From NCBI GenBank assembly GCA_012295275.1, contig CM022672.1, positions 19,964,001-20,028,000 of the forward strand: a stretch of DNA of 64,000 bases. Reading direction: 5' to 3'. Both the position numbers and the translations under genes were made by a program. A model generated the notes under the pieces. That model was not told where the DNA came from and made no database searches. It saw only the letters and a program-made list of their open reading frames with translations. The stretch is from Chrysomallon squamiferum. Lineage: Eukaryota > Animalia > Mollusca. Below, piece after piece: positions 3,019 through 56,605 of the stretch (positions are counted from its first letter, which is position 1; every line of letters begins with the position of its first letter).

Positions 3019-3639
3019 TTAAGAATGTTTGATAGGAATGACTTTTTCTGTTTTGTCCTCAATGGCAGGGAGAGGAGCCTCAATGGACAGCAGTCCTTCA
3101 TAACTGAGTTTAGAAAGCAGAGATTCTGGATTGACCTGATCTGGAAGCAGATACTGTCGATGATATTCACGGAAGCTTGATTTGTTTTCTCCTTTGTCTT
3201 CATGTCGAGCATGAACAGAGAGCATCCGGCCATCAGTTTTGACTGTGATTTCTTCAGGTTTGAACTGTCTCACATCAAACTGAAGTCGGAATTTTTTCCC
3301 ACTTCCATCCTGCACAATTGGATTATCCAAAAGATAATTTTCTCGCATTCGCCACGAATCTGGGTTGGAATCAAATGGCATAATGTGCTGCATATGAGAG
3401 AATACTCTATTGATTTCTTCCTTCATTTTTTTCATTTCTTTGTCCATCGTGTGCAGAGAGCTGGGTGGATCGTAAGGAACCATTGACAGATTGGAATCTC
3501 TGGACCACCAATCCAGATCATGGATTCCAGAACGGAAATTGGAATCTCGCATTTCTCTGTCCATCATTCTGAGCTGACGTTCTGGATTGAAGGAATCCAT
3601 GTCCCAGCCTTGTCTTACCCAAGATGGGGAGCATTCCAT
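3019..3639 (-). CDS. Small heat-shock protein (HSP20/alpha-crystallin domain), single coding exon; true start may be 3668
   Basis: 206-aa ORF with the alpha-crystallin domain FRLQFDVRQFKPEEITVK...HARHE...REYHRQYLLP...LSYEGLLSIEAP and a C-terminal IPI motif. Confidence 0.93.
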   Translation of the reverse strand: MECSPSWVRQGWDMDSFNPERQLRMMDREMRDSNFRSGIHDLDWWSRDSNLSMVPYDPPSSLHTMDKEMKKMKEEINRVFSHMQHIMPFDSNPDSWRMRENYLLDNPIVQDGSGKKFRLQFDVRQFKPEEITVKTDGRMLSVHARHEDKGENKSSFREYHRQYLLPDQVNPESLLSKLSYEGLLSIEAPLPAIEDKTEKVIPIKHS

Positions 3640-3910
3640 GAAATGGGCACTTGGCGAACAAGAGACATCTTTAAAATCTTTTCACAAAACTGTTATCTAA
3701 AGAAATTCCCAAATGAGATAAACACAAATAATTTATACAGTGGGTTTCTTTTGTTTTTGTTCTTTTTATGGCTTTGTTTATCTTGTAAAGAAAATAGTGA
3801 AACCTTACTCTGTTAAATGTAACTGTCTTGTTAGAAAATTAAATCTTAACTCCTGACTACTTCCCAGTTTCAGTGTTTGATTCTGTGAGAAGCCTGTTTG
3901 ATGTGCAGGT

Positions 3911-6263: not shown

Positions 6264-6719
6264 ATGTGTATATGTGTGTGTGTATGTGTGTGTGTTTTTC
6301 AAGAGATTTAATACTTTTAGCTCTGTATAGATATTATTATTATTATTATTATTATTATTATGTCATCTCAGAAACTGAGTAGATTTTAAAGAGATAATTA
6401 TTTTCTGGTAAGTATATATCAGTAATAGTTTCCTTTTGTCCTTTAGATGATAGAAACGTTAACACAAAATACGTCCCATCAAAACAGTTATTGGATAGAA
6501 ATTGGCCTATCTGTAATTAAGTCGTCCGACATTTCCCGAATGAGAATATCAGAGGCCGAGATACACCGAATGCTACCAACAAATACTAGTTATATTGTTA
6601 TGCATCCAAAATATATAATGTAATCAGAAAAGATATTTAATGTTTAAAAGTATTGCAAATATACTTGCCCTTAGTAAAATAATTATTAATACTATCCAAC
6701 ATACAAAAGTCTCGTAATC

Positions 6720-6751
6720 CCGGAAGTGCGCGTGATTCAGTGTCGGCCATT
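6720..6751. promoter_or_regulatory. Housekeeping-type promoter core: ETS/GABP motif CCGGAAGTG and YY1-like CGGCCATT
   Basis: Motifs lie in a locally CpG-rich patch about 100-125 nt upstream of the F-BAR ATG. Confidence 0.55.
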
Positions 6752-6844
6752 ATTGATCAACGAAAGAAGGAAATAGGTTCAGAAATAGTAAAAGATTAAT
6801 TTTGTTTATTAGCTTGTATTTTGCTGAATTGCACCTATGCAGTC

Positions 6845-9800
6845 ATGAGCTGGGGACAAGAGTTGTGGGTAAGATTATTCAACATAACGCATTTTTTTCG
6901 AGTTTTTGCATTGTACTGAAGAATGTTTTGATCGTGACAGGTCAGACCAATCCTCTGTCAGACTTATCTCTGTCTGCCCCACTGTCACTATGATAAATAA
7001 CTAAAAATTAAAATAACAAGCATGTTTTAGATTAATAGATATAATATATAAATATATCCACTTATAAATATATAATCTTTTTAAATATTTTTTTAGTAGA
7101 ACCCTTACTTTTCTGATGTGAAATGCTTACTTTTGAATCATTAATGAACAAAATCTAATAAATATTACGAATTAACTTATTAAATAACAAATTATTTATT
7201 CACAGTTTTTACCGTCCGGAAAGGAAGGCTGTCTTTGTTTGATTAATTTAAATATATTTTACTTACTGTCACCCTTCTTTCAAACTGATAAAATAAGTCA
7301 TGTGTTGGTTTAACTGCTTGTTTGCACATCTTATTTAAATTAAGTTGGCGAGTAGACAGAAAACTCAAGGTTCTTCCTTTGGACTATTTTACATTTCAGC
7401 CTGAAAACCTCTGGCTGATCCTTATAAATAACAATAACATCTGAATTATATTTAATATAATTATGATAAATATGATTATTTCTTCTGATACAATTAAATT
7501 TTATATATCCAGTGATTGAATATTGATATATGTTATTAAACTTTTAGTAGCATCCTGTGCCAGTAATTGTAATAATGCCCTGATTCATAAAAAAATTTGA
7601 TCTCTATCTGGAATTAGTATGTATTATACTGGTTTCATAATACTTATTTTCAATTGTGTTTCACACACTCACACACAATTATATATATATATAGGCCCTA
7701 TAACTTAATAGGTTAATACAAAATTGTAATCAGAATCATTTTTGTTCTATTCTAATTTTCAACAGTTTTCCTTATAATAAATGTTTTTATAATCTAAACT
7801 CTGTAGAAAATGAATGAAAAGCATTATATTTTAATACAAATATTTGCTTATATGCATTATCACTGAAGATTTCAAGTAGTTGCTTAATTGTAATGTATCT
7901 CAAATTACACTAAATATTTCATTGCTGTTATATAATCAACAATAGCTGTTGTGATTTTTTCTTAAAAAGTATTTGATTTATCATGTTAATTTTTTTAATT
8001 TTATTTTTTTAATCAATTTAAAGAAAAAGAAAAATATGATAATTTTACTCACATTTTCAGTACTGTTCACATAACTGAAATTGAACAGTATTAAAGAGTA
8101 TTCAAATCCATTGCTAAATATAAATTAAGATGCTTTAGTCAGTTATATTGAGATGCTGCAGAAAACATACAATTCACCAATGTTAGATTAGTTTATAATA
8201 TCCCTTAAAATTACTTTGATTTTCATTCATTTTAATTCATCATATACACATAGATAAATCTAGTGGAAATTGTGTGTATAAAACATTACTATGGTAATTA
8301 ATATTTTTTATTTGTTTATATTTGAAATTAATGTCGAAATACATTTAGCATTAATGTTATTCGATAACAGTTTGTCCCTAGTTTTAATTTTTAAATATGT
8401 TTTCATAACATTAATAAACTAATCATACATACCAGCATTTGTGGACTTCTAAAATCAAGAACTAACACTTATCATATCTTTGCATTTATTAATGTCTTAA
8501 AAGTAGTTAGTATGGACTAATGACAAAAATGGACACGTTATTATGACATTATAAGCAGGATGTTCACATTGCTTTCCCTCAGCCTAAGGCATATAACTGT
8601 GTATATTTCACACTGAATGTGAAATGCCATCATGTGTCAGTGTATTTAGCTTTTATGTACAAGTGTACCTGCAACCTAATTTGAGAAAGTTTGCTTTGGT
8701 GGACTGATTACACAAGTTCGTGTGTGAACTGTTGTAATTGGACATCCATCTCCATTAGAAGCTATGCAGCATTTGCAGGTGGCTGTCTCACTAAAAGCTG
8801 GAGTAATGAAGGACCAGCCAAATTTTACACTTTCAGAGCTGAAAGCTAATTTGACTGGTACTTCTGTATCTAAATGGGTATTTGTTTAATTTTTATTTAA
8901 CTATATTCTTATTTTTTTATTATTATTTCACAGACTCTTAGAGTCTAACTTTTGATTACATAATAATATCTTGTCAAACTGAAATTTGTTTTGCTGATTG
9001 TGGTCAGGTACAATATAAAGTTTTAATCTTAAAACATTGTATTTTATTATTAATCAGATATCAAACATGCAGGTTTTGTAAATAATGAAATATGAAATCC
9101 ACTGTTGTAACATCCAAATCTTCTTTTATTAGCATCTAAGGTATTTTTGATTGTATTGATATTAGTCATGGAAGATTAGCTGAAGTGGAAAATGGTATCT
9201 AATTTTATAATTATTTGCAATAAAATAAAACCAGAGGTTTTTCATCTACAAATTGTGTCAATTTGATGGGTCTGAATATTTTTGTATGCTGTTGATGTTT
9301 CACACTACCACATATTTAAATTCCAAATTGCAGTTGGTTTTAATTTTAAATAAAAATTAAGTTATAAATAATTAGAGAAATATGTTTATATTAAGGTTTT
9401 CTTTATAAGATTAAAGACATTATTAAATATTTATGCTAATAATAATACAAATAGATACTGTAGTGTACCTGAACATTTGTCTGTTTCTTTACAGCAGCAC
9501 CAAAATAAAAAAACAAAAATAATCATTAATGATTGTTTAGATATAAATTAATAAGTACGAATAATTCTAAAACTTTGGAAGTAAAAAATACAGAGCTACA
9601 GATGAAGAATTCTTTAATGACTTTATTGTTTTCAAGTTTTCTTTTTCTGTATATTTATTTCCTATATTTAGGCATTTTCCTTTCTTGATCTGACATTAAT
9701 ATATTATTTTCCAGGACCAGTATGATAACGTCGGTCAGCACACAGAAAAGGGTATTTTATTTTGTGAGAAATTCACTCACTTCCTGAAAGAACGCTGCAC

Positions 9801-12800
9801 AATTGAACAAGAGTATGCAAGAAATCTCAAGTGAGTAAACACTTTCTTCTTATCAATTGTAGTCCAATTTGGTAGATAATTAATAAAGATATGGAATGAA
9901 ACAAAATAAATGTGGATGTGTTATCATGTGATAGGTTGTTGGTAGGGGCAGTTAAACACACCATAATTTTTTTTAATTTTTTCCCAGATTTTCTTTCTGA
10001 ATATTTTATTTTATTTTATTTTATTTTATTTTTTTCATTTAATAGTAAAAAAAAGATCAAGAGTACTTTTTTTTAGTATTATTTACTATTATTTATATTT
10101 TTTTAATTATTATTTGTGATTATTGAAGATTGACACTAATTATGTTGCCAATCTGTTATGAATGAAGGTCAGGTGAGGTAAAAAAAAATAGGACAATTAA
10201 TGCAGACTCCTGTTGTTTAATGTCAAACTGTTTTGTTTTTCAGTTTGTTTTCTCATTAAAAAACAAAAACTTAAAAGTAAAATAAACAAAGATGAAATTT
10301 GATTCTGTTAATTCTTTAATCTGATTAGTAACTTAAAAATGTATTTAGTTTTACACTAGTTTTACATTATTTGTTTTTCCTTTAAAATCTGACTTTACCA
10401 CATTAGTTTTTTCCCTTCTTTGTAATACATGTCATAATTTGTTGATTACAAATCAAATACTTCCTTAGTGGTCATTGATAGTTGTTAGAATTATTTCACA
10501 GTGTCATATTTTATATTATTATTATTAGTTCAAACAATTGGAAACTTGATATGATGTACTTCCTTCACATGAAATTATAATAGATTATGAATCAAGGTGT
10601 TGTTTAGAACTGATATGCATTTTATTCTTTTTTATATTTATATTTTTTATTTTTAAATTGAAATGTATTCATTTTGTACTAGACATTTATTACTATATAA
10701 TTATTTGATATATGTCAGCAATGTCATTATAATTTATAATATAAAACTTAAAACTGAAGTCAACATTTTTATAGTTCTTGGGAACATTTATTTCTTTAAA
10801 TTCATGATCTTAATGATCCATCAATTTTTATTTATTTTTTTGTTTATTTTTAAAGATATTTATAAAACAATACTGAACAAATATTTTGTTAGATGGTCAT
10901 TGTTTTTTCTTTTTTCCTTTTCTTTATTTTTTTTATTTTTTATTTGACATTTGTAAAAGAGAAAAACTTGTTTTATTTTCTTCATGTTTGCACTAGAAAA
11001 TTATTAACATTTGGTGTAGCAACATTTGAGGTTTACATGTACATTTGAGATGAATGTGTTGATAAAGCAATCCCAGGCAGGTGGGCTTTGTTTGTAGCAC
11101 ACACAGGACTTGTGCCAGGTCACTGGTAAGGTGATATTTGACTGGCTGTACACTTGAAAAGTGACACTAATTATGTGGCCAATCTGTTGTTATAAAAGCA
11201 GGTCAGATGAGGTGAAAAAATAGGACAGTTAATGCAGACCCCTGTTGTTGAACATCAGATTGTTTTGATTTTCAGTTTGGTTGTTTTCTTGTTAAAATAA
11301 AACACCCTCCAAAAAAAAACCAACAACTAGAAATTAATTCTTTATCTGATTGTGCTAGTTATTTTCCTTTTCATCATGTATGTTTGTGTGCGAGTTACCA
11401 GCATAAAAAATTTACTGAACATTTTTAATTAATTTCTGTACATACTTTAATGTAATTTAATTAAATATGTTGTTTACATTTGTTTTCACATTTGTACTTG
11501 TTTTAAATAATAACTAGAAAAATAGTAAGATAAAATTTTTATGTTAGTATAAAAAGTCATTTTTAATAATTACATGAGCTTTTATTTTTAAATAATTGGG
11601 TACAAGAGAATACTAAAGATACATGTTAATTGTTATGGCATTATTTGAAACTTCCATACAAGTGCAACACAACCCAAATTGTTATAAAATTTACTCACAT
11701 TGTTTTATTGGTTCTTGTATGTTATAAAACTTTCTGTGTGTTTAAAATTTTTGTTTAATGAGTATGAGCTGCAGCGTATGTGTATCAGTTTCAACAATTA
11801 ACATAACTTTTGGAAGTAATAGGTGTTCCTTGAATTGTTTGAACATGCCCATCTTGACTTTATCATTTTCTTCAACTCTTTGTTATGCAGATATTTGAAA
11901 TATGTCTGTTTGATTTACCTCTTGAAGATGAAACCTCTTGGGAACATATTTTTCAGTCCTGTGGCTTTATTACTTAAAACTGTTTAACATACCAAAAACA
12001 GGAAGAGTAATTTATCCACATACTTTTTGAAACCTGAGTTTGGGAATTGTGTTATTTTCTCCTATGGTGTGCTTATTTAGTTTCATTAAATGTTTTGTTG
12101 AAAGACTCAACTTTCTTATTGTTGTTGTTGGCTGTTGTCCATCTATTGTATAAGATGGATTTACTTAGCTGTATGGACACCATCTGTAGATTATAAGTGG
12201 TTGTGACATAGTCTATTTATCTGTGTAAAGTTTACACAACTGTTTAAACAAAACATAATGCAGGCTAAAAACCAATGGGTTTTGTATGTTTGTTATTGTT
12301 TATATTATGTGTACACATTAATACATTTACATAATAGTGATTTCCAATGCTAGTAAGAACTAAAATAAATCTACAGATTTTAATTTAATGAAATATTTTA
12401 TGAGAATATACATTTATTTTCATTTCTTCCCATTTCTGAGATTTTTAAACAAATTTTAAATAATAAATATAGAACTTTTTTGTTATTAAACTCAGAGACA
12501 AAGGCAGAATTACAATGAGTTGTTTATTAGATATAAATCTTCAGTTATGTTTGTAAAACAATTAATTTTATCCATGCAGCACCTGTAGAAAAGCCATTGT
12601 AATTTGTATTATGAAAAATATGTGATTAAATTAAAATAAAGTCATAAAATTTGTAACTGAGATATTAATTAATATATATAGTTATTTCCTTAATGATAAT
12701 ATTGCATGCATTTTAAACCATCTCTGTAATTTATTGCACACTGCTAACTAACTTCTCCACCATTTAGGGATATTTTGTTTCCAAAAATATTTAAAAAAAC

Positions 12801-14797
12801 CTACTTAATGAAATCATAAGTCCATGTATTAACTGAAATAATTGTATTTTACATATACAAAGACTTGTCATTTACATACCACTGTTTTTCCAGCACATAC
12901 TAATTAAAATGTAGTCAGCTTATCACTTTGGAAATTCGATTTTTAAACATTTATTTATTCTTTGTATGAAAAGTTCATTAAATGTTATTATTTAAGTCTA
13001 AACAAAAGTCTGAACAACAGTTACTTTGATAAATCAAAGATTTTCTATAATTTTTGCACATTCCGCGACTGTATTGTTTCTGTTATGAGTTAAAGCAACA
13101 GTGCTCTACCCTGTGGGTCTTTGCACAGGGATAGCATATGGCTGCATAGTGCAGGGTATTGAATTATTTCCTTTCGAATAAGCCTCTGTGTAAGAAGGAA
13201 AACGATGGCAGTGAAATTTGCCTGGCCAAGGCATGCCATTCCTCTGTTGAGTGTATGTACTGATACATGCATTGTACACCTCCTGGCACAGTTCCCTGCA
13301 TGGAACAACAAAAGGAATTTCCTGTCTTGTCTCCTTTGTACAGTATGGCATGTAAGTGCCACATAGGAAGAAACTTAGGTGTTCAGAACATCCTGACTGA
13401 ATCAATGGCTTGTACTGTTCCAGTTCTTTTTCCATTTCTCTCACTGATGACTGCAAATACATATTAGGGACTGAACCATATGTATATGGCTCCTTGTTGT
13501 CAGCACAGATAGATAGAGTATTTTTCTGGCATATCACATATTGCAGCCTTCTTTGCTTCTTTCTTTCTTTCGCTGGAGGGATACATCTTCTGGATCTTTC
13601 TGACAAGAGACTTGGACAGCGAAATCCATAGTTCACCCAAGGACGCCCCTGTCGTCTCATATCCAGTGAACAGGCATTTTTAGCTCGACGGCAGGTTTCT
13701 TTGCATGGAATTTGCACTTTTGTTGATCCAGGAGTGCACTTTGGTAAATACATCCCACATAGCAGTAGACGCAAGTTTGGTGAACATCCCATATCCATGT
13801 AGGGCCACCATGGCTGGAGTGCCCAGTAGACTTCATTCTGATTTTGGTGGCCATACTGATTAGGCATTCGGGTCATATTATATCCTACTAGCCCTTTGCA
13901 CATAGGGACTTCAACTGGTTCACATTGCGTATTTTGAGCAGCAGTGAAATACCTTCCATTGCAGATAACATCCAGAATCAGCAACACCAAAACTACTACA
14001 CCATCCATGGTGCCATGCACAAAGCTGTCTTTCTTCTTTCCACCAACCTGTTATATACTTTATAAAACAAACTTTTTATCAGACTGTTCAGTATCTTAAG
14101 TAAATGTCCTAGTTGTACATTGGTGGAGAATGTTTCATTCAACCTACAGAAAATTAAAGACATGTGTTTGGCCTGGTGCTTTGGTAATCAAATCTGACTT
14201 GGTGTTTTAGTTGCTTCCATTTGTTATAGGAGGGGTAAAAGATAATTTGGTTGGTCAGGGTCAGTTACTGCATGTTGCATGCTGGTGGCTATTAATGATG
14301 TTAGATTTGGCATGTGGCATTACAAGAACAGTTGCTGAGTTCATGACAAGCTATCTGTCTTGATAATTGGTTTTAATGGGCTACTTGTGTTTTAGTTCCT
14401 AGACCCTATCTTGAAGTGGCTAAAGCACCATTCAGATATTAAGTTAAAATCTAGACTTGAATAAGTCACTTATAGACACAAGATACTCTAATCTAATAAG
14501 ATGTCAGGTCTGTGCATGTAGGTTATCTATTAAATAGAATAACAGTTTGCTGATAACATTGTTTTGGTTAAATAGTGCATGTAACACATTGTATAATTAC
14601 ACATGTGAATTGTTGATAAAGACATTTTAAATATATTGTCATGTTATCTGCATGTTGTCGTTTGTACTAGACAGTTTTGGATTGTTTTATTTTTTATTAT
14701 TACATATAGTATGAACAAAATAAAAACACAGAAATTAAAAATGAAACTTTAATGTATTAACTAAAGGCATTTTGTACATGTATATGCAGGAATAATA

Positions 14798-14833
<36 letters not shown>

Positions 14834-17800
14834 TGTGTGTGTGTGTGTGTTATATACTTCCAAGAAAGAAATAGTCTTCAAAATATATCACTTTACAATC
14901 AAGTGAAAATAAGTCTATGTAAGGTAACAATACTTACAATGAAAATCTTTGTTGTTTTTTTTTTTTTTTTTTTTGTTTTTTTAAAAAAAAAAAAACATAG
15001 TACAGTTTAGGTCAGAATAATCTGGAGCAAATGTTCAATTGTTTTCAGAAAAGACTTTTATTTTATTTCATATTTCAAATGCCTAAGTTTATTGTACATT
15101 TTTATGTTGTAAAAGAAATAAAACCACTTTTTCCAATTTTATATATTCTGTTGTGTACATAGAGATGCAAATAATATTGTTAGCTTATTTCTAAAAGTAC
15201 AACATTCTTTTCACTGGAAATGTCTTTAAATTTAAATGTTTGCTTGGGCAATTTTATTTCATCGTTCAGTCAAAACATATTCTGATACCAGTACATTTTA
15301 ATTCTGATATATTGGCAAAACAAATGAAATAAATATGATTATATATAGTTAAATTTTAAGACACATTTTCAGATTCTAGTTTAGAAACTATTTCTTACAG
15401 TTATACAAAATAATTAAAATTTTGTTTAGCTATTAATCTTTTAATTCCTAGAAAAGAGTATAAAGCTTCAGTCAGAAAATTATATATCATGGATATGGAA
15501 TGATATTATATAGTGCCCAATCATTTACAAGTAGTATAATATAACTGTAAAGTAATACAGCCACATATTATAAATATTGTTTGAAGCAAAGTATATATTA
15601 ACTTTTATTCTATTAAATTTTTTTAAAAAAGGAAAAAATTATAAAGAGATGGAATAATTTATTTTATAAATAAAAAATGATACAAAATGTGTTAAAGAAT
15701 AAGCTTTAGAGGCAAATTCCAGTCCACATATGTAATGGGTGGAAAAAGGTTTTAAAATACATATAACAGATTTTAAATTACAAACATACATATATACAAA
15801 CAAATATTCTGAGAGAAGATAAGGGAAAGATTTAATTTTGTTGTTGTCAGATGAAACGAAAAAGCATTCAGTCTAGGGTAATTTGTGTATGCTTTGCCTT
15901 TTCTTTTACTCTGCATATGTTCACATATGTCGTATGGTTTATTGAAGTTTATCAAAGCATGATGAAAGCACTAGTTATTTTTGCACTTGCCCAGACTGAT
16001 AAATGTTTGAAGACTTCTTTTTTTTTTTTTTTTTTTTTTTCTATTTTAACTTTTTACTTTCTATTTATTTGTTTATTTATATTACAATTATTTTTATTTT
16101 TATTTGTGTTTGTATTTTAAAAAATAGTGCTTTAAAAATGCCAGTACCACTGTTTCTAAAACTTGTATAGGTTTCATTTTCATTTTGTAAATAAGGCCTT
16201 ATAATAGTTTTTTTTTTCACATCATTACTATTTCTAGGAGATTGGTGCGAAATTTTCAACCAAAGAAAAAAGAAGAAAATGAATATCAGTAAGTACAGAA
16301 AGTGGTATTCTTTACCACAGACATGAAACTTTTTATTATGTGAATTATTCTTAGTTCAAATTAATCCTTGAACATTTAAAAAAAAAAAAAAATGTGTGGT
16401 CTACTTCAGAACAAATGAAATTTTGCTTGTTTTTATTATTTTCTCCTTGGGCAGAATTTTTCAGGTTAGATGACATTACATTTGTAATTCATCATAATTT
16501 TACTTTAAGTATAAAAGATTTGTGGGTAATGATAGCTTTCGTAATCTGCCTTCAGTGTTTTAAAGTATGTTATAGAACATTTAATATGTGAAATAGAAAT
16601 ATAAGCAAGTACAAGGTGTGACAACTAATTGATTGAACTTTACTTCCTTTTTTTTTTTTTTAGCCTCAGGTTAGTGATAAATGTCAATGTTTAGTACAGA
16701 ATCGGTGGGAGAAAAATTCTGTAATCACTTTACTGTGTGGTATTAATGTGTTGTTGTTGTGTTTTTTTGTTTATTGGTTTTTTAATTATATACATCTTTG
16801 GTGTCATTGTTTTATATGTGTGATATTCAGCCATAAGCCAAGTTATAATTATTTTATTTAGTAGCAGCTGACTGAAAGATGTTGGCATTGCCTAATTAAC
16901 TATTTGTTTTTGCACACAAATGTATACATCAGCTGTAGGTTATATTTACATTCTTGCCTCTATAAATAGAGGCACATACACAAAAAAAGAAAAAGAAAAA
17001 GACATTTTGATCATTAACATGTTGACATATTTGGTGTGTCACAGAATAATTTATTTGAGGTGTTGGTATATAAAAACACAAGTAATGACTAGTTGCAAAA
17101 AATGTATGTATTCAGGTTAAACACAGAGATTAACACAAGTCTAGTATCTTTTTAAAAGTTGTACAAATTTGCCATAACCACAAGATATTCTCTTATTTAT
17201 TCCTTTTCATTTTTAGATTAACCATAAAGAAATTGAGGAAAAAGGAATATCTTCAATATAAGTTTTATTATGTGGACTGAACACATCTTAATACAAAGAT
17301 AGAAATGGTATTTTTTGTTTGGGATTGAAAGACAGAAGACAATAAGGTCATTGAATCAAATTATTTAATACATATATGTAGGTGGTAGTCTGACCAGTTT
17401 TGGGGAGAGAAAGAAACTACAAAAAATATTAAAGATCTTGGAAAACTGTTCATTCTTGCTCAAGATTTATTTGTATGTTTATTTTTAGATTTTCTTGGGC
17501 AAGGGCATTTGTTGACATGATCAAAGAGCTTCATGATTTGGCAGGCCAACATGAAGTAATAGCAGAAAACCTCCAAGGAACTGTTTCTAAAGATCTTCAG
17601 TCTCTCATATCTGAATTAAAACAGGAAAGAAGAAAGGTTTGAAATGAAGGTCAAATTTAGAATGTACAGTTAGTCTTCTGCAGTTATGACTTCTTAAAAT
17701 ACAATACAAAATTCCCTTCCTTCCAATGACCACTCAAAACTGCAGTATATATTATTTTGAATGTTGATGTGTGAATGAACTACTAATTTAGTTATTGAAT

Positions 17801-20800
17801 TAAGTAATAATTGATATTAAAAATAAAATGGATATTAATAAAATTACAGTATTAAGTTTAAATAATAATAATTGAAGAAAATGTTTTTATAATTGAATAT
17901 ATATATATATATAAGTGGCATCAGGATAAAAGTTTATATTTTAGAGTATTCTTTTTATTTCCCTTGTCTTCTTAACTGGTTATTAAATTAAAAATATATT
18001 GCAGAAATTCAATGTTTTTTTTTGTTGTTGTTTTTTTTCTTCTTATAGCATTTAGCAGAAGGGTCAAAACTGCAGGAACAGTTACAGAAATCAATCAGTG
18101 CATTAGAAAGGGTAACCAGAATAAATCAACAAAATACTTTTATAATTCTAACTTTTTATAAATCTTTAATTATGAAGGCCTAAATTTCAAAATAAATAAT
18201 TTTTGCAATCACCATTCTTGTGAAATGATGATTAAAGTTTCTTTTTTATCCAGTGAATGACGAATTCAGTTTGCATGTCTGTAAAAAAAAAAAAAAAATA
18301 GACAGTTTGTGCTGACAGATGTTTTTAATTTTTTAAGATTTGCTTTTAATATTATAAATAATAACTTTAATAATTCATAACTTAAAGCAGCATTTTTTTG
18401 TTGTTGTTATTAAACTTTTTATAAATTGGGTAGGGAAAGTGATGTCTCAAATCTGAATGATGTACTTCACTGATTAGTTTGTAGTTACTGTTAAACATGA
18501 ATCATGCTGCTATGAAACTAAAGACGCTGACAGTGAAAAACTGCATTATTCACAACAAACTGATGTCTTAACTGTTGAAACAATAACAGTTTTAGTCTCT
18601 GTTGTTGTGTAGTCCATTAATTCAAATTTCTTATATTCTGGGTAGTTGATAACTCAGAATTATTTTTTCTTACCTTCTGTGGAACTTCTGTTAGTTTAGA
18701 AAATATGCTACATTTCAGGCTAAACGTCAGTATGAACGGGCATTCAAAGAATCAGAAAAAGCTTTGGAGAACTACAGAAAAGCAGATGCTGATATTAATC
18801 TATCTCGGGCAGAAGTGGAAAAAGTAAGCATAAATTTATGAAAATAACCATGCATTCGAATATTTCTTAAATAGGTAATGTTAATTTTTCTTTTCCTTTT
18901 TTTTTCTTTCTTTTTCTTTTTAAATTTTTTTCCCTTCTTTCTTTCTTTCTTTTTTTTTTCTTTCTGTCTTTCTTTCTTTGTTTATTTTTTATTATTTTTT
19001 TAATTTATTTAATTTATTATTTTTTTTATTATTATTATTAATACTTTTTTCTTTCTTTTAATAGTGTTACAAGATTAGTATATATTTTTGTAATAGTTCA
19101 CAAAAGTTTTTTCAAATGAACTTCAGAATTTATTCAAAATTTATTATATACAAAAATTATACTAATTCTTGTTTGTTTTTATCCTTTTGGGGTTTTCCTT
19201 ACATAGACCAAATAAGAATAAGTTACTTTCTTGATATTCAAAATACTATTTAAATTGTGAACAATTTTCTTCAGGATATCAATTTGTTAAAGCTGAAAGC
19301 TGAAAAAGTAAGAAGCCATTTGAACCCTATTTATGATCAAAATATATTTTAAATGCTTCATTTCCTTCCCCACTCATAAAATATAATTATTTTACCAAGT
19401 TCTAAAACAAAATGTTAATTTCATTCCAAAAGAAAATTGTTTACCAAGTGAAAAGAATATTGCATAATTAAAATAGTACATTACCAGTGTCCCTTATACA
19501 TGATACCTTAAAGCTTATTCAAGTCGAGAACCTCTCACCAATTCCACAATGCAAAACCAAGTTGTTTTATAAATTACTTAGCAGTCATTTTTCAATGGCC
19601 AATATACCTTCCCAGTTAAAACTGACTTTTATTGACAAAAATGATGTACTGTTAATAGAATTCAAATGTAATTTTAAACATTTAATAATGGTCTTCCTCT
19701 TATTGTTTCATATATTTTTTTATTTTTCTTATTTTTCTTTATTTATTTTTTCTTTATTTATTTTTTATAACATTCCATATTGAAAAATTGTTTTACAAAC
19801 CAGATTCACAGCATTTTCTTAATGCAAGAATCAGGGTCTGTTAAAAATTATATCTGATTGTAGACTCAAAATGTATTGTTCACTAACCAATATCCAGTTA
19901 TTATAAAATTTTAAAATATTAATGCACTTTTTATTATTATTGTTATTATTATTATTATTATTATTCTGAAAAGATAGTTCTTTTTTTTTTTTTACCTGAA
20001 TGGAACTAATAAAAATCATAATTTTTTTTTTGATATACCTAACTTATGGCAGTTCCTTTGGAGCAGAAGCTTAGTTACAATACATTTGATTACAGTATCA
20101 TTATTGAAAAGTCTTGTTCAAGTTTTGTTATAGGATCTTTTTGATTTCTGGGATTAGATTTTTTTTCTACAGTGTTTGATTAAAATCTTTTATAATAAAA
20201 CTATTGAATTCTCTGTAAAATTATGTCAAAACAACTTTCCTGCTTGATGCATTAACATGTATTCCAAATGCTTTGTTATTCATATGATGATTAAAGCAAA
20301 TCCCTAATTATGACATATTGTTTCCTTGATTAATTCACATATAAATAAAACACGTATTTCAAATACACTGCTGTGAGCCTTAATTGTTGTTACAGAATAC
20401 ATTTCAGATACATAATAGTTTAATAGTTTAAACTTTATTTCTTTTTATATTATTATGTAATTTCCATTTTTCCAATACTGGTTTTGTCACTATTTAATTT
20501 TTTTGTTTTATTTATTTATATTTATTTTTTACAATTGCTTTTTAATAAATATTTTTTGTATCATTGGTAAAGCTGAATTAGGTAAAATTACTAACCAGTT
20601 TGCTATCATTTCTGTTAGTAGTTACTTTTCACCTGCTGGTAACTGGCTGTTTGTATGCTATTAAATAATCTGATTTTAATTATTCCAGTACCGACTTACT
20701 ATGAACACAAAGGCCACACAGTGTGAAGAAAGTAAAAATGAATATGCTGCAACACTGCAGACCACCAACCAGTTTCAGAGAGAATATTATACAATACTTA

Positions 20801-23800
20801 TGCCAAAAGTTTTTCAGGTTTGTTCTTCACAGATATTATCTTTGTATTCATATACAAAAAAAAAACTTTTCATTTAATTATTTTGTCTTTTTTTTTTTAT
20901 TACATGATTTTATGTATTTGTGTGTGGTGTTAGAAATATGTTTAGCCAGTATTAATTAGGTTTTCATATATTAAGTATGTAGGATTTGAAAAAAAATGAG
21001 CATTGTTGTGTTTGTGCTTCTTTTGAATATTAGTGCTACAAGGGAGATAAACTGATAAATTTGAATCTAGAATAATATTTTTTTTTTTTTTTTTTTTTTA
21101 TTATATACTAAAGCTGTATATTTAACATCTTGTCAGTTTATTAAGTAGGTAGTTAGTTATTAACTTGTTAATCTTTCCATTGGAAAGAAACACTTTTGTT
21201 TTTTCCAGAGTTATTCTTATGCCTGAATAATTCCCCCAGTTTATGGTTTTGGACACAAAAATTGCATTCAGTGCATTTCATTCACTTATCTCACTTGTTT
21301 GTTTGTTGTTGATATCAGGATCTGCAAGACATAGACGAAAAAAGAATTAACAAAATCCAAGAGTTTATAGGACAGTGTGCCAATACCGAGCGAAATGTGA
21401 TACCAATTATCAACACTTGCATTGAGGGCATGAATAAAGCTGCAAAATCAATTAATGCCAAGGAGGTAAGATTATTCATGACACTGCAGCATTATTTTGT
21501 GTTATCAGAAAATTGTTTATCCAGACAACCTGTTGATAGGAAATCTGTGTCACATACTGACCATCAGAAATGATTAATGAGGTCAAGATGCAGTGCAGGG
21601 CCAGCTAGGGACAGTGGGATATAGATGCCATTAAATGTTATTAATTTAGGTACATTATCTTTTAATAAGAATATTATCTTTTGATACTGGAATCTGTATA
21701 TAATGGTTCTGTATTTTGTGCTAGGATTTTTGTATATTTTATTTTATTTATTTTTTTTGGTTTTTGGTTTTTTTCTTCAATATTTTAGTTAAAACAAACA
21801 TAAAACCTTAGTCTTTTAAACATTTACAATCATGTGAACGAAACAAATCATATTTATCTAATAGGAATATGTACAGATCAAGAAAATTGGTTTTCTGTAG
21901 TTCGTTATTTATTTATTTATTTATTATTATTATTATTATTTTTAAATATCAATTTGTGCGCTTAAACATTTGTGTTTGTTGACATTTGCAGGATTCAAAA
22001 TCAGTGATAGCACGATACAAGTCAGGCTATTCTATACCAGAGGACATTCCATTTGAAGATTTGAGTGTTGCACAAACTAATGAGAATAATCACACAGCGC
22101 CTAAACAAAAAACACCCTCAGATAAAAACACACTGAAGTCATCCACTATCTCTGGCAGACAAAAAGGCAGAAAAGGCCTTTTTGGCATTTTCAGTGGATC
22201 CAAAGTGAGTATTGAATCAGTGAAAGAAAAAAAATACATATATATCTATATACAGTATATTAATGTTGTTATTATTAATTTGTTTTTCCTGATTTATCCA
22301 TCTGTTCAGAAAACAAAAAAGCTGAAAGATATTTTATTGTTTGTGCATTCTAAAAGAAAACGTATTTTTTTAAGGGGTTTAGTTAGAGGACTGGTAGGAT
22401 GGTAGACAGCCTGAGTGGGTTCAATTTAAATAAAATACCTTTGTGATTATAATTTGTATTGTAAACGTCATTGTTATTACTGTTATATCTAGGTTTTAAA
22501 ACATAATTAATACTGGTACTAATTTTGAAAATATTTCTTTTTTGTTAGCTTCACATGTGTTTTGTTTTGTCATGACGTCTCTCTGTATGTGTATTCCTGT
22601 AACATAATCAGTCGTAGGTTTGATTTACGACTTTCTGATATATTATTAGTAAACTTTCTTTTAGTGTTACTTTTATTCTAGGGATGAAGCTAGGTATAGT
22701 ATATTTACTGTTATATCGAGCTGTCATTTTATTCTTTTTTAATTTCTAACAGATGAAAAATTAATAATTAAAAAAATAATTGGGTTTTTAGTATCGTTTC
22801 TGTTTGAGGAGGGAGACAAGGTGTTGTAGAGTATATGAAAATCAGAAGATCAAAGAAAGGGCATGATTGTTTCAGATTGTTTGTTCCTAATGTAAAGAAG
22901 TCAGTGTAATACAAGTTTTAATTTGAGAGTAATTAAACAACATAAAATTAGAACATTTTAGCTGTATTAAAGAAACAGATTGTTCCATTTTTGAAACTAT
23001 AATATACTGATGCTTGTCAGATTATTATTTCTGTGTCTGGAAGAAAACAGTGTTCTATTTGATATTTATAAATTCATTGTCTCATATTTTCTCTACATCA
23101 TCATTTTTTTTTATTTAATGCTTATTTAATAATGGTTAAAATTCATTAAGCTATTCATATTTCATCTTTCTTCCCCTCGCAATCATCCGGCATCAGAAAC
23201 ATTCACAGGTCTGTGGAATATCATACATGTGTATATTTATATGTCTGTGTATTGTTATCTTGTAAGTCTTCCTTAACATGTAAAATCACTTTTAACTCAC
23301 AAGCGGTGAATTCTTCTGTAGTATGTAACTGTTATCTTATAAAAAAAATGTGTCCTTTTATCCTTTTATTATTATTATTATTATTATTATTAGAAACTAC
23401 TAATATTCTTAGTTCTGTGCATGAACAATTTAAAAACAAAGCACATAATGCAAATCTGCACGTTCTCTCCTTCACATATGCCCAATTGGAGACATTTTAA
23501 AGTAACTGTGCAGTGTTTTGATATAATTAGAAAAAAAATGATATTGTTAATTAAATACAATTTTTTTTTTTTTTTTTTTATAATTGGATAATAAAAAATT
23601 ATATTCACACTATGTGCACTGTTTCTGATTTATTGAAAATTATTGTTTGTATACTTAGATAGTAACTACAAGAATTTTTCTTTTTATTTTTTCTCCCCCA
23701 CCCACTTTAAGCCTTTTAAATAAAACTTTTTTTTTTTTTTTTATATATATATATATATATATATAAAGGTTCAAATTTTAATAATAATACCAAACCTTTC

Positions 23801-25219
23801 TTCATATTTGTTAGAACTTTACTCTTATGGATTTCATAATAAACCGATGTTGAGGAAGACTTATACAAATTTTCTTAAGTTGATCACTGTTGTTTTGTAC
23901 ACTGTCGTTATGGCATTTAGTAGAATATTTTATAAAACTGATTTTTGTTTTACTTTTCTCCAAGATCATTGGACTCTTGGTACGTAGCGTGTTTGCTCAT
24001 TTTTTGACATGTGTTCACTGGACGCTTACAGTGGTGCATTTTCTCCCTTGTAGCTGAATTTAGTTCCATTTGGTTCTTAGTTTGCTTTTCGCATTTTGTT
24101 TTCAGTTATTTATTAGGTAATTTTATTTTGTGTGGTATTTTTTTATTTTTTATTTTGCAGTCCATTCAACTTATTTTATAGACTTTGTCTGTTGTGAAAT
24201 TAAATGTCTGTTTATAGCAGTCAGCTTATTTTCATTTAATGGAAGTTTCGGAATGTTTATCTGTTCAGTCCAAATAATGATTTTTTTTTTTTATTAATTA
24301 TTATAATTATTATTATTTTTTTTTTTTTCATTTTTAAAAAAATTACATAAATCACTTTTCCAAATAAATATTACTTTTTTTTTTTAAATCAGATGGTTGG
24401 ATGATGCTTGAATATATATTCTAATGTCAGTATGTTTAAATGTTCTTTGTTCAAGATTTGGTTATACATTCTTTCATCTTTGTTAAACCAGTACATATAG
24501 TTCCTATCATTTGGGGGGGGGGTTGGAGGGTCATTTTTTTTTTTTTTTTTTTTTTTTTTTCCATATTTGATGATACTTGGAAATGTATTTGATGTAATTT
24601 TTATCAAAATAATGTATCCTACCTAGAAAGAATCTATACCCTGGCAGCTAACTGATAATTGTTCACATAACTTGCATTGTAAAGTTGTTTTTAGATTTGT
24701 GCCCCTTGTTTCCTGCATGATTCTTCATTTCTTCACGTAGAATAAATAATTGATAAAACCAATGCACCTTGGTCATGGTCTGGAATGTTCGGAAAATTCA
24801 GTTGTAGTAGATCTTTAGTGTGTTTTCTAGCTTTGTTTTCAGTTGTTTAAAATAAAACTGAATATACCTTTCATTATTTTTATTTAAAGAAAACATATTC
24901 ATTTTATGTTGGGTTTTTTTGTTGTTTTTTATTATTATTATGTGCATAAACATATATATTTAGCATTTAATGATTTAACTTTTTTAATTATAATTTTTAT
25001 TTAAAAAAATAAAAATAAAAAATGTTTATATATAAATATGAAAAGCTTGATTTTTTAAAGCTTTATTTGTCCTATTATGCATGGCATGATCCTGATATTT
25101 ATTTAGATGTTATAAATCTAAAATGCAGCTTTAATGTATCTTAAATATTTTTAAACATTTGACTCCAGGATTTTTGTCCCTTTTTTTATTTAATTTTTTT
25201 ATATTTACTATCTTTTTTT

Positions 25220-25253
<34 letters not shown>

Positions 25254-27361
25254 GTCAATATGCAAATTATTAAACAGTCGAGTTTAGAAAACTTTTTTTT
25301 TTTTAATTTAATATAATTTGACAGTTCTGTCATAGAACATGAATTCTATTATATTTTAGGGTATGAACAATTAGTGAAGTAATAGCTAAGACCTATTAAG
25401 AATAGTCATTGATTATACTTTTTTTTGGTCTAATTGTTCCAAAAATTAACATAAACTGGAAAGTATAATTGGTTCCTATTTTTATTGCTATCACTGCAGT
25501 TATTTATGTTTTGGAAAAAGTATAAAATATAAATTACTATGAATAATAATTTGGGAGGACAGCAACAAGACTGTTTTTGGGAACAGCCTTACGGTATCTG
25601 TATCCTATTGGACATGATTGTGAAATTTATATGTGTATAGTTATTATCTCAAGATTTTTATTAAACGTGATTTTAATTGTATTATAAATTGTTTCAGCAG
25701 ACCGATAACCAGAATGAAGACTTCAGTGATCTTCCGCCTAATCAGCGAAGGCGGAAGTTACAGTCTAAGATTGATAACATAAAGAAAGATATGGCAAAGG
25801 AACATGCTGAAAGGTGAGTGCTTGTGGGACAGAGGTACATAACACACATATTCACACATACACAATAAATAACTGAAATTTTCTGTTCCGCTTATGATGT
25901 ATGTAGTATGTTACCACTGTATAGGATTTGTTTTGTTTGCTTTCTTTCAAATTACAGAAAAAGAAAAGAAAAAATATGTACCGAAAATGCTTTTTTAAAT
26001 ATTTGAAAGAAAGGTCAGCTTCTCAGAGATTCTGTTAAGAAACTTACTAATTTTATGAATGGAACATTTAAAAAAAAAGAATTAAAGATATTTAATAACT
26101 GAAAGAATTGACATCTTAGTTACTACTTTTAACAGTTGTAAAAACTGTAAAGCATTCTCCACAATAAATTCTGTATTTGCTTTGAAAAGTAGCATTTATT
26201 TCTTACTCATCTGTAAATGTATTTTTAATCTGTAGAGAGGGCATGTTAAAGATGAGAGATGTTTATGCAAGTAACACAGCTTTAGGAGATCCCAGCTCAC
26301 TCGATAAAAAGATTGAGGAAAATGCTCAGAAGATAGATGCATTGCGTCATGAACTTCAGAAATTTGAGGTGAATTTTAAACATGTTTAATACATGTCACA
26401 AAGTACTTTTTTCATAAAAGTTTCATTTCTTGATTGATTATTTTTGAAAGTCATGTTTAGAAACATGATTTACAATTGTGTTTTTAGATTTTATATTATG
26501 ATCACTGTATTGTTTCAGTCATACTTAGCAGACTGCGATGGCAAACATCGTCGACATAGTGCTTCAGATGATTCCCTGTCACAGAGCATGTCTGAGGGAA
26601 GTGTCCATATAGCGCACATACAAGATCAAGACCAGAAACAGCCAGAGTCCAGTCCAAACACATATCAGTAAGCTTTCAACATCTGTTTCAATTTTCAAAA
26701 ATCAACCATCAGAGGCAGCTTAACATCACCAAATTAGTTTATAACAGATTTTTTTTTTTTTTCAAAATATTATAGCCTGTTAAATTTATTTCTGCACAGA
26801 TTATTTGTTTAGTAATTTAATCCAAATATTAATTTCTTAACCTTATTTATTTCAAAATATTATGTTTATCAGTTAATTAAAAAATTTATGTAGATTAATT
26901 TATTCAGAACTTAGTACATTTATTCAGTCTACAGTTATGAGCAGTTAATTAAGTGTTTACCACAAATGATAAAAAATATTATACGTAAAGATAAAATAAC
27001 TCTTCTGAATTTTGAAAGTCATGCTCTGCTTTAGAACTGATTTCAGTTTGTAACATTTGCTACAAAATTAAAATGTGAAATCATTCATGTAATAAATTTT
27101 GTAGAAGAGTAATGATGCTTATCAAATATTGATTTCTTTACAACTGATCTATTTACAGAGCCGTGGAAGGTGATTTTACAGATGGTGATGAATTTGATAA
27201 TTTTACTGTGATTGGAACTTGTCATGCAATGTATCCATTTGATGGTTTGTACATTTAATATCAATAATTTGATGTTATGTGTTCCTATAAGATTTTATTT
27301 TTTATTATTTTTTTTTAATGGAACTCACATCTTCATAGTTTCATTTTTTCAATGCAAAATT

Positions 27362-27402
<41 letters not shown>

Positions 27403-27778
27403 GAAAACTCAGGTTCACAAAACCTAGATGTATGTCACAAATAAAATGTATTATTTAATTGGTTTGATCATCTAACCAAATATTCTAATAGAAAGTTTTT
27501 CAAAAAAAGTATTTTCTTCTGTCAGTTGACTAAAGCATGTTGTGGAGATGTGAAATGTTGATAATACATGAACTGCAATAGTTAGCTAAAAGAGGTTGTT
27601 TGCTTTTTGCACAGGAGGCAGTGACGGCTCTGTTGTGATGATGGAGAACGAAGAGATGTTTGTGCTAGAGTTGGACCAAGGAGATGGGTGGACGCGTGTG
27701 CGTCGAAATGACGGTTCCGAGGGATTTGTGCCAACATCCTATATTAATATTCACCTTTATGAGTCGGACCAAGTGTGA
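6845..27778 (+). CDS. FNBP1L: F-BAR/HR1/SH3 protein of the FNBP1/FNBP1L(TOCA-1)/TRIP10(CIP4) family, 14 core exons
   Basis: GT-AG, phase-consistent exons: 6845-6868 (MSWGQELW), 9715-9830 (DQYDNVGQHTEKGI), 16238-16288, 17489-17636 (DLAGQHEVIAENL), 18049-18111, 18719-18823 (ADADINLSRAEVEK), 20689-20817, 21319-21465, 21992-22204 (YKSGYSIPEDIPFEDLS), 25698/25701-25813 (EDFSDLPPNQRRRKLQ, HR1), 26236-26368, 26519-26667, 27159-27244, 27615-27778 (SH3: DQGDGWTRVRR...EGFVPTSY). The symbol stands for the family; the gene is likely co-orthologous to all three vertebrate paralogues. Confidence 0.95.
8764..8877 (+). CDS. Candidate alternative first coding exon of the F-BAR gene
   Basis: Open 38-codon stretch MQHLQVAVSLKAGVMKDQPNFTLSELKANLTGTSVSKW ending TGG|gtattt, in phase 0 like the canonical exon 1. 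Confidence 0.55.
10131..11351 (+). repeat. Diverged ~190-bp direct repeat pair (10131-~10327 and 11162-~11351)
   Basis: Both copies read TGACACTAATTATGT.GCCAATCTGTT...AGGTCAG.TGAGGT.AAAAAATAGGACA.TTAATGCAGAC.CCTGTTGTT... Confidence 0.85.
13106..14008 (-). CDS. Secreted protein with two tandem Frizzled cysteine-rich domains; uninterrupted CDS nested antisense in F-BAR intron 2
   Basis: ATG at 14008 in GCACCATGG context, 300 aa. Hydrophobic signal peptide VVVLVLLILDVICNG. Two CRDs of 10 Cys each (CEPVEVPMCKGLVGYNMTRMPNQYGHQNQ...; CSEHLSFFLCGTYMPYC...PCRELCQEVYNAC...WPGKFHCHRFP). No transmembrane or netrin domain. Confidence 0.92.
   Translation of the reverse strand: MDGVVVLVLLILDVICNGRYFTAAQNTQCEPVEVPMCKGLVGYNMTRMPNQYGHQNQNEVYWALQPWWPYMDMGCSPNLRLLLCGMYLPKCTPGSTKVQIPCKETCRRAKNACSLDMRRQGRPWVNYGFRCPSLLSERSRRCIPPAKERKKQRRLQYVICQKNTLSICADNKEPYTYGSVPNMYLQSSVREMEKELEQYKPLIQSGCSEHLSFFLCGTYMPYCTKETRQEIPFVVPCRELCQEVYNACISTYTQQRNGMPWPGKFHCHRFPSYTEAYSKGNNSIPCTMQPYAIPVQRPTG
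23197..23208 (+). CDS. Candidate 12-nt microexon (KHSQ) of the F-BAR gene
   Basis: ttcatctttcttcccctcgc...catcag|AAACATTCACAG|gtctgt, frame-preserving in a phase-0 intron. Confidence 0.4.
23965..23979 (+). CDS. Candidate 15-nt microexon (IIGLL) of the F-BAR gene
   Basis: ttttacttttctccaag|ATCATTGGACTCTTG|gtacgt, frame-preserving in a phase-0 intron. Confidence 0.6.
27365..27397. repeat. (AC)n microsatellite
   Basis: AC run in F-BAR intron 13. Confidence 0.9.

Positions 27779-38143: not shown

Positions 38144-44219
<6,076 letters not shown>

Positions 44220-55252: not shown

Positions 55253-55289
<37 letters not shown>

Positions 55290-56574: not shown

Positions 56575-56605
<31 letters not shown>

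What the first reader, a model, noticed from the sequence alone, without database searches (positions are those of the whole stretch)
13106..14008. Nested antisense gene encoding a secreted 'double-CRD-only' Frizzled-related protein
Seen: signal peptide, two complete 10-Cys Frizzled CRDs (CRD1 keeps YNMTRMPNQYGH with its N-glycan site; CRD2 is more divergent at its start), a short tail and nothing else. The CDS is uninterrupted and lies antisense in intron 2 (9831-16237) of the F-BAR gene. Established: CRDs bind lipidated Wnts (or sterols in Smoothened). Canonical sFRPs have one CRD plus a netrin domain, Frizzleds add 7 TM helices, and corin's two CRDs come with LDLa and protease domains. This architecture fits none of these. 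Inference: a lineage-specific bivalent Wnt sink, carrier or cross-linker, possibly retroposed; pipelines would likely mislabel it corin-like or frizzled-like. Acceptor-like sites at 14048 and 14144 suggest an upstream non-coding exon.
Basis: partly seen in the sequence, partly recalled or inferred. Interest (0 to 1): 0.82.

Follow-up and report, generated by a model that had tools for sequence, protein, structure and literature searches.

The report
Mollusc-wide secreted twin-Frizzled-domain protein family
A snail gene lying backwards inside an intron of another gene encodes a small, likely secreted protein made only of two Frizzled-type domains; it belongs to an apparently undescribed family found across molluscs that likely tunes Wnt growth signals, which nobody has tested.

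Summary
An intact 300-codon ORF (13106-14008, minus strand) encodes a hydrophobic leader, two 10-cysteine Frizzled CRDs and a short tail, inside intron 2 (9831-16237, confirmed by spliced RNA contigs) of an FNBP1/CIP4-like gene. It is not species-specific: homologues with the same two-CRD layout occur in gastropods, bivalves and a chiton, labelled frizzled-4/-5/-6, sFRP4 or hypothetical. The window gene belongs to a gastropod clade (99/100 support) whose accession numbers are consecutive with FNBP1 in 10 of 13 species; 0 of 8 family members outside it share a contig with FNBP1, and one of these relatives has introns, which fits retroposition in early gastropods. RNA contigs cover the ORF unspliced, but are unstranded and intronic background exists. 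CRD2 keeps most lipid-groove residues; CRD1 has polar changes at the groove rim and is strongly basic. Most likely a matrix-held Wnt modulator (about 0.5), not a symmetric bivalent sink. Ten literature searches found no description of the family, but secreted multi-CRD proteins are a known kind (sea urchin sFRP-1). Verdict: new variant of a known kind, interest 0.45.

The parts
13106..14008 (-). Uninterrupted CDS, 300 aa, two-CRD Frizzled-related protein (P0001)
   Evidence: orthologue in Gigantopelta aegis 87% identical; covered end to end by single RNA contigs in 3 of 3 RNA runs
13937..14008 (-). Hydrophobic leader, predicted signal peptide (about residues 1-24; cleavage site not determined)
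   Evidence: hydropathy; predicted helix 3-17
13583..13924 (-). CRD1 (C29-C142): 10 Cys, sequon N44, net charge about +9, polar residues Q120 and R122 at two lipid-groove positions
13532..13582 (-). Short basic linker (residues 143-159)
13151..13531 (-). CRD2 (C160-C286): 10 Cys, near-neutral, keeps Q198, Y199, L202, Y252, M259 at groove positions; family motifs PNMxLQ and KxxCHR
12516..13105 (-). Likely 3' UTR; AATAAA at 12959, 12735 and 12528; RNA contigs end at 12769, 12597 and 12516
   Evidence: contig ends are a weak hint only
14009..14789 (-). Upstream region carried unspliced in the same RNA contigs; 22 upstream ATGs; acceptor-like site at 14144 not seen used; two contigs stop at a TA repeat
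9831..16237 (+). Intron 2 of the host FNBP1/CIP4-like (F-BAR, HR1, SH3) gene
   Evidence: RNA joint 9830>16238 GT..AG in 3 of 3 RNA runs; exon map; domains of the orthologue
6845..27778 (+). Host FNBP1/CIP4-like gene, start codon to stop region

Best explanation
It is an intact gene, conserved across gastropods next to (here inside) the FNBP1 gene, for a predicted secreted protein of two Frizzled-type CRDs that likely modulates Wnt signalling outside the cell, probably binding the Wnt lipid mainly through CRD2 while the basic CRD1 and linker likely hold it on heparan sulphate or similar matrix. Shown: ORF, two CRDs, family across molluscs, gastropod clade, linkage to FNBP1, groove residues and charge. 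Inferred: secretion; transcription from the minus strand; origin of the gastropod clade by retroposition (or relocation with intron loss) of an older intron-bearing gene; Wnt as ligand; polyanion binding by CRD1, which would play the part usually given to the netrin domain of sFRPs; net effect (sequestering or spreading Wnt) unknown.
For: Both halves are Frizzled/sFRP-class CRDs by sequence (best hits Frizzled-5/-8; Smoothened only 24-39 bits) and by fold (Z 17.1, rmsd 1.8 A to FZD4 CRD; Z about 10 to ROR, MuSK, Smoothened). All 20 cysteines are kept in 16 of 22 full-length family proteins and conservation is high across about 500 My (clade mean identity 61% CRD1, 56% CRD2); the three RNA differences listed in the CDS are all synonymous. 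Groove positions named for FZD4 in PMC5458758, mapped through the PDB alignments: in CRD2 the F72, L75, M122 and F127 equivalents are hydrophobic in 13 of 13 clade members and Q71 is kept in 13 of 13; in CRD1 F72, L75 and M122 equivalents are hydrophobic in 13/13, 13/13 and 13/14. CRD1 net charge median +12 (range +4 to +19, n=22) against median -4 for 460 other CRDs, of which 32 reach +7. Precedent: sea urchin sFRP-1, secreted, four tandem CRDs, no netrin domain, antagonises Wnt/Fzl5/8-JNK signalling in knock-down experiments (PMC5778778, abstract and passages).
Against: The groove rim is altered: the Y125 equivalent is glutamine in 14 of 14 clade CRD1s and polar in CRD2 (two-residue insertion, mapping uncertain); the F127 equivalent is arginine in this protein; L121 equivalents are mostly polar; I78 is S/T in CRD2. 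Several retained residues may be kept for folding rather than lipid binding. CRDs do not always bind Wnt (Smoothened binds sterols; Sizzled inhibits Tolloid proteases; recalled, not from a call). RNA evidence is unstranded, from one study, and other intronic stretches are also covered at depth 2-10 against 11-17 over the ORF. The family falls with no canonical class in the trees, which lacked named sFRP and corin sequences.
Confidence: 0.5

Rival explanations
1. The two CRDs pack as a fixed unit with their grooves end to end, a single-chain copy of the lipid-bridged Frizzled CRD dimer, and bind one Wnt lipid (or a free fatty acid) between them with high avidity.
For: AlphaFold2 pTM 0.76 and 0.83 for the whole chain, pLDDT 82-94 across the linker in the deeper model, which suggests a fixed orientation; short linker in all but a few members; one palmitoleate bridges two FZD4 CRDs end to end and Wnts may generally engage two CRDs (PMC5458758, passages).
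Confidence: 0.2
2. It has left the Wnt pathway: the CRDs bind another partner, for example an extracellular protease (as Sizzled does), another growth factor or a lipid, in matrix or mucus.
For: Family-specific invariant surface motifs absent from Frizzleds (PNMxLQ, KxxCHR); clade-wide polar substitutions at the groove rim; long branches separating both CRDs from other CRDs; Arg-rich low-complexity extensions in many members.
Against: Closest solved relatives by sequence and fold are Wnt-binding CRDs; core groove residues are kept; the only tested multi-CRD secreted protein found in print acts on Wnt signalling (PMC5778778).
Confidence: 0.22
3. The ORF is one exon of a larger membrane or protease gene, or is not expressed and the RNA cover comes from host pre-mRNA.
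For: RNA contigs are unstranded and intronic background is present; 22 upstream ATGs in the unspliced 5' region would hinder translation; one unnamed fragment (P0120) has a hydrophobic stretch after CRD2 and one Elysia model (P0168) a long N-terminal extension.
Against: The ORF has its own start, leader and stop; no joint enters or leaves it; 48 of 49 family proteins are 119-384 aa and none has a third CRD by my profiles; the 12 family proteins scanned carry no Pfam family but Fz; orthologues are annotated as separate genes in 13 gastropod species and occur in Logan run assemblies.
Confidence: 0.05

Closest known systems
Sea urchin sFRP-1 (Illies 2002; Khadka et al. 2018, PMC5778778)
   Same: Secreted, tandem Frizzled CRDs with 10 cysteines each, no netrin domain, no membrane anchor; lineage-restricted; the best functional precedent (Wnt/Fzl5/8-JNK antagonist).
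   Different: Four mutually similar CRDs plus an Ig domain, echinoderm-restricted, CRDs related to sFRP3/4; here two dissimilar CRDs (33% identical), no Ig, molluscan. Orthology not tested (sequence not in hand).
Platynereis fzCRD-1, -2, -3 and an Aplysia CRD-only gene (Bastin et al. 2015, PMC4669655)
   Same: Lophotrochozoan, signal peptide plus CRD only, no netrin domain, proposed Wnt modulators.
   Different: fzCRD-1 is 208 aa with one CRD and clusters with sFRP3/4; the paper describes no two-CRD gene in its three molluscs in the parts read. Its sequence tables were pictures and could not be read, so overlap with the Aplysia gene is not excluded.
Canonical sFRP1/2/5 and sFRP3/4
   Same: Secreted, N-terminal Frizzled CRD, about 300 aa; feature search ranks sFRP3/4 fragments first (0.93).
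   Different: Second domain is a CRD, not NTR; by sequence CRD1 is nearer Frizzled-5/8 (99.7 bits) than sFRP3 (63.7).
Frizzled-5/8 receptors
   Same: Best sequence match of both CRDs among solved structures.
   Different: No seven-helix domain; two CRDs; altered groove rim.
Corin
   Same: Two Frizzled CRDs in one chain.
   Different: No membrane anchor, LDLa, SRCR or protease domain; the two CRDs are adjacent.

Membership tests
Frizzled-type CRD domain (Pfam Fz) | Ten conserved cysteines, profile score above cut-off, CRD fold | tested here: met
   156.9 bits, two stretches; 10+10 Cys; Z 15-17 to Frizzled/sFRP CRDs for both halves
sFRP | C-terminal netrin (NTR) domain | tested here: not met
   No NTR hit; second half is a CRD; 12 family proteins scanned show Fz only
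sFRP | Single CRD | tested here: not met
   Two CRDs
sFRP | Cleaved signal peptide, secretion | tested here: inconclusive
   Hydrophobic leader only; no predictor, no experiment
sFRP | Binds Wnt through the CRD | not testable with these tools
   No Wnt sequence was in hand for modelling; groove residues partly kept
Frizzled receptor | Seven-helix membrane domain after the CRD | tested here: not met
   No hydrophobic segment after the leader; stop after residue 300; no RNA joint out of the ORF
Corin | Type II anchor, LDLa repeats, SRCR and trypsin domain | tested here: not met
Sea urchin sFRP-1 type | Four tandem CRDs and one Ig domain | tested here: not met
   Two CRDs, no Ig against PMC5778778
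Sea urchin sFRP-1 type / fzCRD-1 | CRDs cluster with sFRP3/4 | tested here: inconclusive
   Feature search favours sFRP3/4 fragments, sequence scores favour Frizzled-5/8; trees lacked named references
Retrogene | Intronless CDS | tested here: met
   (window gene only; other clade members' exon structure not seen)
Retrogene | Intron-bearing parent gene at another locus | tested here: inconclusive
   One relative (L002) has two GT..AG introns in the CRD1 region; paralogues outside the clade lie on other contigs than FNBP1 in 8 of 8 cases; the direct parent was not identified

The most novel reading that the evidence does not exclude
A pan-molluscan class of secreted Wnt regulator missed by surveys of the lophotrochozoan Frizzled toolkit: a covalent, asymmetric CRD pair that pre-assembles in one chain the two-CRD lipid tunnel that Frizzled receptors form only on binding Wnt, anchored to matrix by a basic CRD1, with a retroposed gastropod copy kept inside FNBP1 since the origin of snails.
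Probability: 0.2. Interest if true: 0.72.

Novelty: new variant of a known kind. Interest (0 to 1): 0.45.

Why it matters
It adds a conserved, apparently unnamed family to the molluscan Wnt-related toolkit and corrects annotations that count it as frizzled-4/-5/-6 or sFRP4, which can inflate or confuse Frizzled gene counts in snails. Several molluscs are reported to have lost or altered sFRP3/4 (PMC4669655); a second secreted CRD family is a candidate to fill that role and is testable in Lymnaea, Biomphalaria, Patella or Haliotis. If the two CRDs form one lipid tunnel it would be a natural single-chain model of the 2:1 CRD:Wnt arrangement. The gastropod clade also gives a datable, long-lived nested gene.

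Tried and rejected
Complex prediction of CRD1 with CRD2 as separate chains gave no answer (score 0.01, alignments not used by the tool); it is no evidence either way. A model with Wnt could not be run (no Wnt sequence among the session's proteins). No whole genome is held for this window, so paralogues in this species were not counted. The wide fold search found no solved chain aligning over both domains, which does not exclude one. Rfam found nothing in the intron. Earlier findings of the scan: nothing by sequence or words. The idea that CRD1 and CRD2 arose by a recent internal duplication is not supported: each forms its own clade (100/98, 100/99) and they were joined in 0% of 200 bootstrap trees, though 119 columns resolve little and an old duplication is not ruled out. 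Breaks of automated FNBP1 models at residue 46-48 (Bulinus, two Biomphalaria models, H. cracherodii) were considered as proof of nesting in intron 2 and set aside, because a bivalve model (P0254) breaks at the same place. Splicing at 14144 or 14048 was not seen, but 209 loose ends were not shown and contigs drop rare forms. Papers opened that held nothing on this family in the passages seen: PMC6425005, PMC11414264, PMC6386478, PMC11589774, PMC8194122, PMC6938638, bioRxiv 10.64898/2026.07.29.741434.

Full report
1. The observation. Window 13106-14008 on the minus strand is one open frame of 300 codons plus stop. It is far beyond chance: the longest stop-free stretch in the intron is 314 codons against a maximum of 124 in 100 shuffles, and the CDS is 44% GC in a 26% GC intron. 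Pfam gives two Fz stretches (156.9 bits, cut-off 32.1) and nothing else above cut-off. Each half has ten cysteines. AlphaFold2 on a 33-row alignment gives pLDDT 89.3 and pTM 0.83 (82.8 and 0.76 with 16 rows), and both halves match Frizzled/sFRP CRDs at Z 15-17. The leader is hydrophobic, but no signal-peptide program was on hand.

2. Host gene and RNA. The surrounding gene is FNBP1/CIP4-like. Contigs of three RNA runs from one study join 6867>9714 and 9830>16238 at GT..AG ends, so the ORF lies antisense in intron 2 as stated. The same three runs each hold one unspliced contig of about 2 kb over the whole ORF (12516-14507, 12769-14789, 12597-14789). No joint links the ORF to anything in 6700-17500, and none uses 14144 or 14048. 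Against a firm claim of expression: contigs are unstranded, other intronic stretches are covered too (depth about 2-10 against 11-17), and the tool warns that contig depth cannot rank genes. The fourth run, of unrecorded kind, had no cover over part of the ORF. The three letter differences listed in the CDS are synonymous (15 further rows for the whole stretch were not shown).

3. The family. The protein search returned 15 relatives among 164 candidates; a profile search of 1.84 billion representatives, best 150 listed, added more. Profiles for each domain separate a family in which the first domain scores as CRD1 and the second as CRD2; the best other protein reaches 112 bits. I assigned 49 proteins to the family by these scores and by inspection; 48 are 119-384 aa, one Elysia model is 663 aa through an N-terminal extension without a Pfam domain, and none has a third CRD by my profiles. 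Every member with a species name is a mollusc: gastropods (Gigantopelta, Haliotis, Patella, Littorina, Elysia, Plakobranchus, Bradybaena, Bulinus, Biomphalaria, Lymnaea), bivalves (Mactra, Argopecten, Pinctada) and a chiton (Liolophura). Many members are unnamed, so a wider range is not excluded; no cephalopod name appeared. The nearest named protein is from Gigantopelta aegis (87%). Database names are frizzled-4, -5, -6, sFRP4 or hypothetical.

4. History. In a tree of 29 two-domain cores the window protein falls in a 13-row clade (99/100) whose ten named members are gastropods. Patella and Haliotis also have a paralogue outside it. For the clade, accession numbers or locus tags are consecutive with the FNBP1 orthologue in 10 of 13 species (G. 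aegis, H. rufescens, P. caerulea, E. chlorotica, Plakobranchus, Bradybaena, Bulinus, B. glabrata, B. pfeifferi, Lymnaea); two more share a contig of identical length (H. cracherodii, P. vulgata); E. crispata has them on different contigs. For named members outside the clade, 0 of 8 share a contig length with FNBP1. Consecutive numbers show adjacency or nesting, not which intron. One genomic relative outside the clade by inspection (L002, close to the Mactra protein) has two GT..AG introns in the CRD1 region. Inference: an older intron-bearing molluscan gene gave an intronless copy that landed at FNBP1 before limpets, abalones, vent snails and heterobranchs separated. Only one intron-bearing locus was seen, so relocation with intron loss remains possible.

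5. The two domains differ. They are 33% identical over 87 residues; each forms its own clade across the family and they do not group together among 39 other CRDs, though the tree is short and poorly resolved. I mapped the palmitoleate-groove positions given for FZD4 and Fz8 in PMC5458758 (passages) onto the protein through the alignments; the Fz8 numbers other than L121 and Y125 are derived by offset or recalled. In the gastropod clade CRD2 keeps Q71 (13/13) and hydrophobic residues at F72, L75, M122 and F127 (13/13 each), with a polar, inserted segment around Y125 and S/T at I78. CRD1 keeps bulky hydrophobic residues at F72, L75 and M122 but has glutamine at Y125 (14/14) and, in this protein, arginine at F127; members outside the clade are mostly hydrophobic at Y125 (13/18). 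CRD1 is basic in all 22 full-length members examined (median +12) whereas 460 other CRDs have a median of -4; CRD2 is neutral.

6. Mechanism. The most likely reading (0.5) is an extracellular Wnt modulator with divided labour: CRD2 binds the Wnt lipid, CRD1 and the linker bind matrix polyanions. That basic patches bind heparan sulphate, and that the sFRP netrin domain does so, is recalled knowledge. The high pTM suggests a fixed domain arrangement, which leaves open a single-chain version of the end-to-end CRD dimer seen for FZD4 (0.2). A non-Wnt partner is about as likely as that (0.22). Nothing here demonstrates binding.

7. Comparison with what is known. It fails membership of sFRP, Frizzled and corin on domain content. 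Secreted CRD-only proteins are, however, a recognised kind: Platynereis fzCRD-1 to -3 and an Aplysia CRD-only gene (PMC4669655; abstract, passages, sections 13 and 27 read; supplements 1, 2 and 6 are pictures and could not be searched, and may list relevant sequences), sea urchin sFRP-1 with four CRDs and a shown antagonist role (PMC5778778; abstract and passages), and more than 80 tandem CRDs in amphioxus (PMC3516229; passages). Among the 150 best library hits, 21 proteins outside this family also have a hydrophobic leader, two CRDs and no strong membrane segment, so the layout has arisen elsewhere. Ten searches of the held library, one by six accession numbers, found no description of this molluscan family; most rows were seen as listings only, subscription journals are not covered, and the domain surveys of Yan et al. 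2014 and Pei and Grishin 2012 were seen only as citations.

8. Verdict. Real and well supported as a gene and as a family; probably undescribed; a new variant of a known kind rather than a new kind of system. Interest 0.45.

Noticed in passing
library proteins P0017-P0163: Many unnamed proteins with 3 to 15 tandem Frizzled CRDs, some with only a leader, some with a C-terminal hydrophobic segment, Ig or Sushi domains; 21 with a leader and exactly two CRDs outside the molluscan family. A large, little-charted set of multi-CRD proteins.
   Followed up: partly
P0126: 907-aa protein with Fz, NTR, a second Fz and a Frizzled membrane domain; an sFRP-Frizzled fusion or a merged gene model.
   Followed up: no
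window 10123-10250 and 11154-11282: Direct repeat of about 130 bases, 87-91% alike in two blocks, 1031 bases apart in host intron 2; the second copy lies in a stretch (10949-11420) covered by RNA contigs in all three RNA runs. Possibly a short interspersed element.
   Followed up: partly
window 3019-3681 (-): Single-frame small heat-shock protein (HSP20) ORF, head to head with the FNBP1-like gene about 3 kb away.
   Followed up: partly
window 39242-39523 (-) and 49843-63200 (+): Exon of a mitochondrial carrier gene, and exons of an EGF/Kelch protein of the attractin/MEGF8 type.
   Followed up: partly
FNBP1 models P0210, P0254, P0298, P0337, P0338, P0339: Automated gene models of molluscan FNBP1 often lose the first 46-48 residues (exons 1-2) and with them the FCH domain call.
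   Followed up: partly
family proteins P0003, P0014, P0033, P0044, P0046, P0051, P0066, L001:153-1208: Long Arg/Asn/Gln-rich low-complexity extensions before CRD1 or after CRD2, adding to the basic character of the family.
   Followed up: no
P0070 cluster: A long-branch family member seen on 166 contigs of public runs with no name; could be a non-molluscan member.
   Followed up: no
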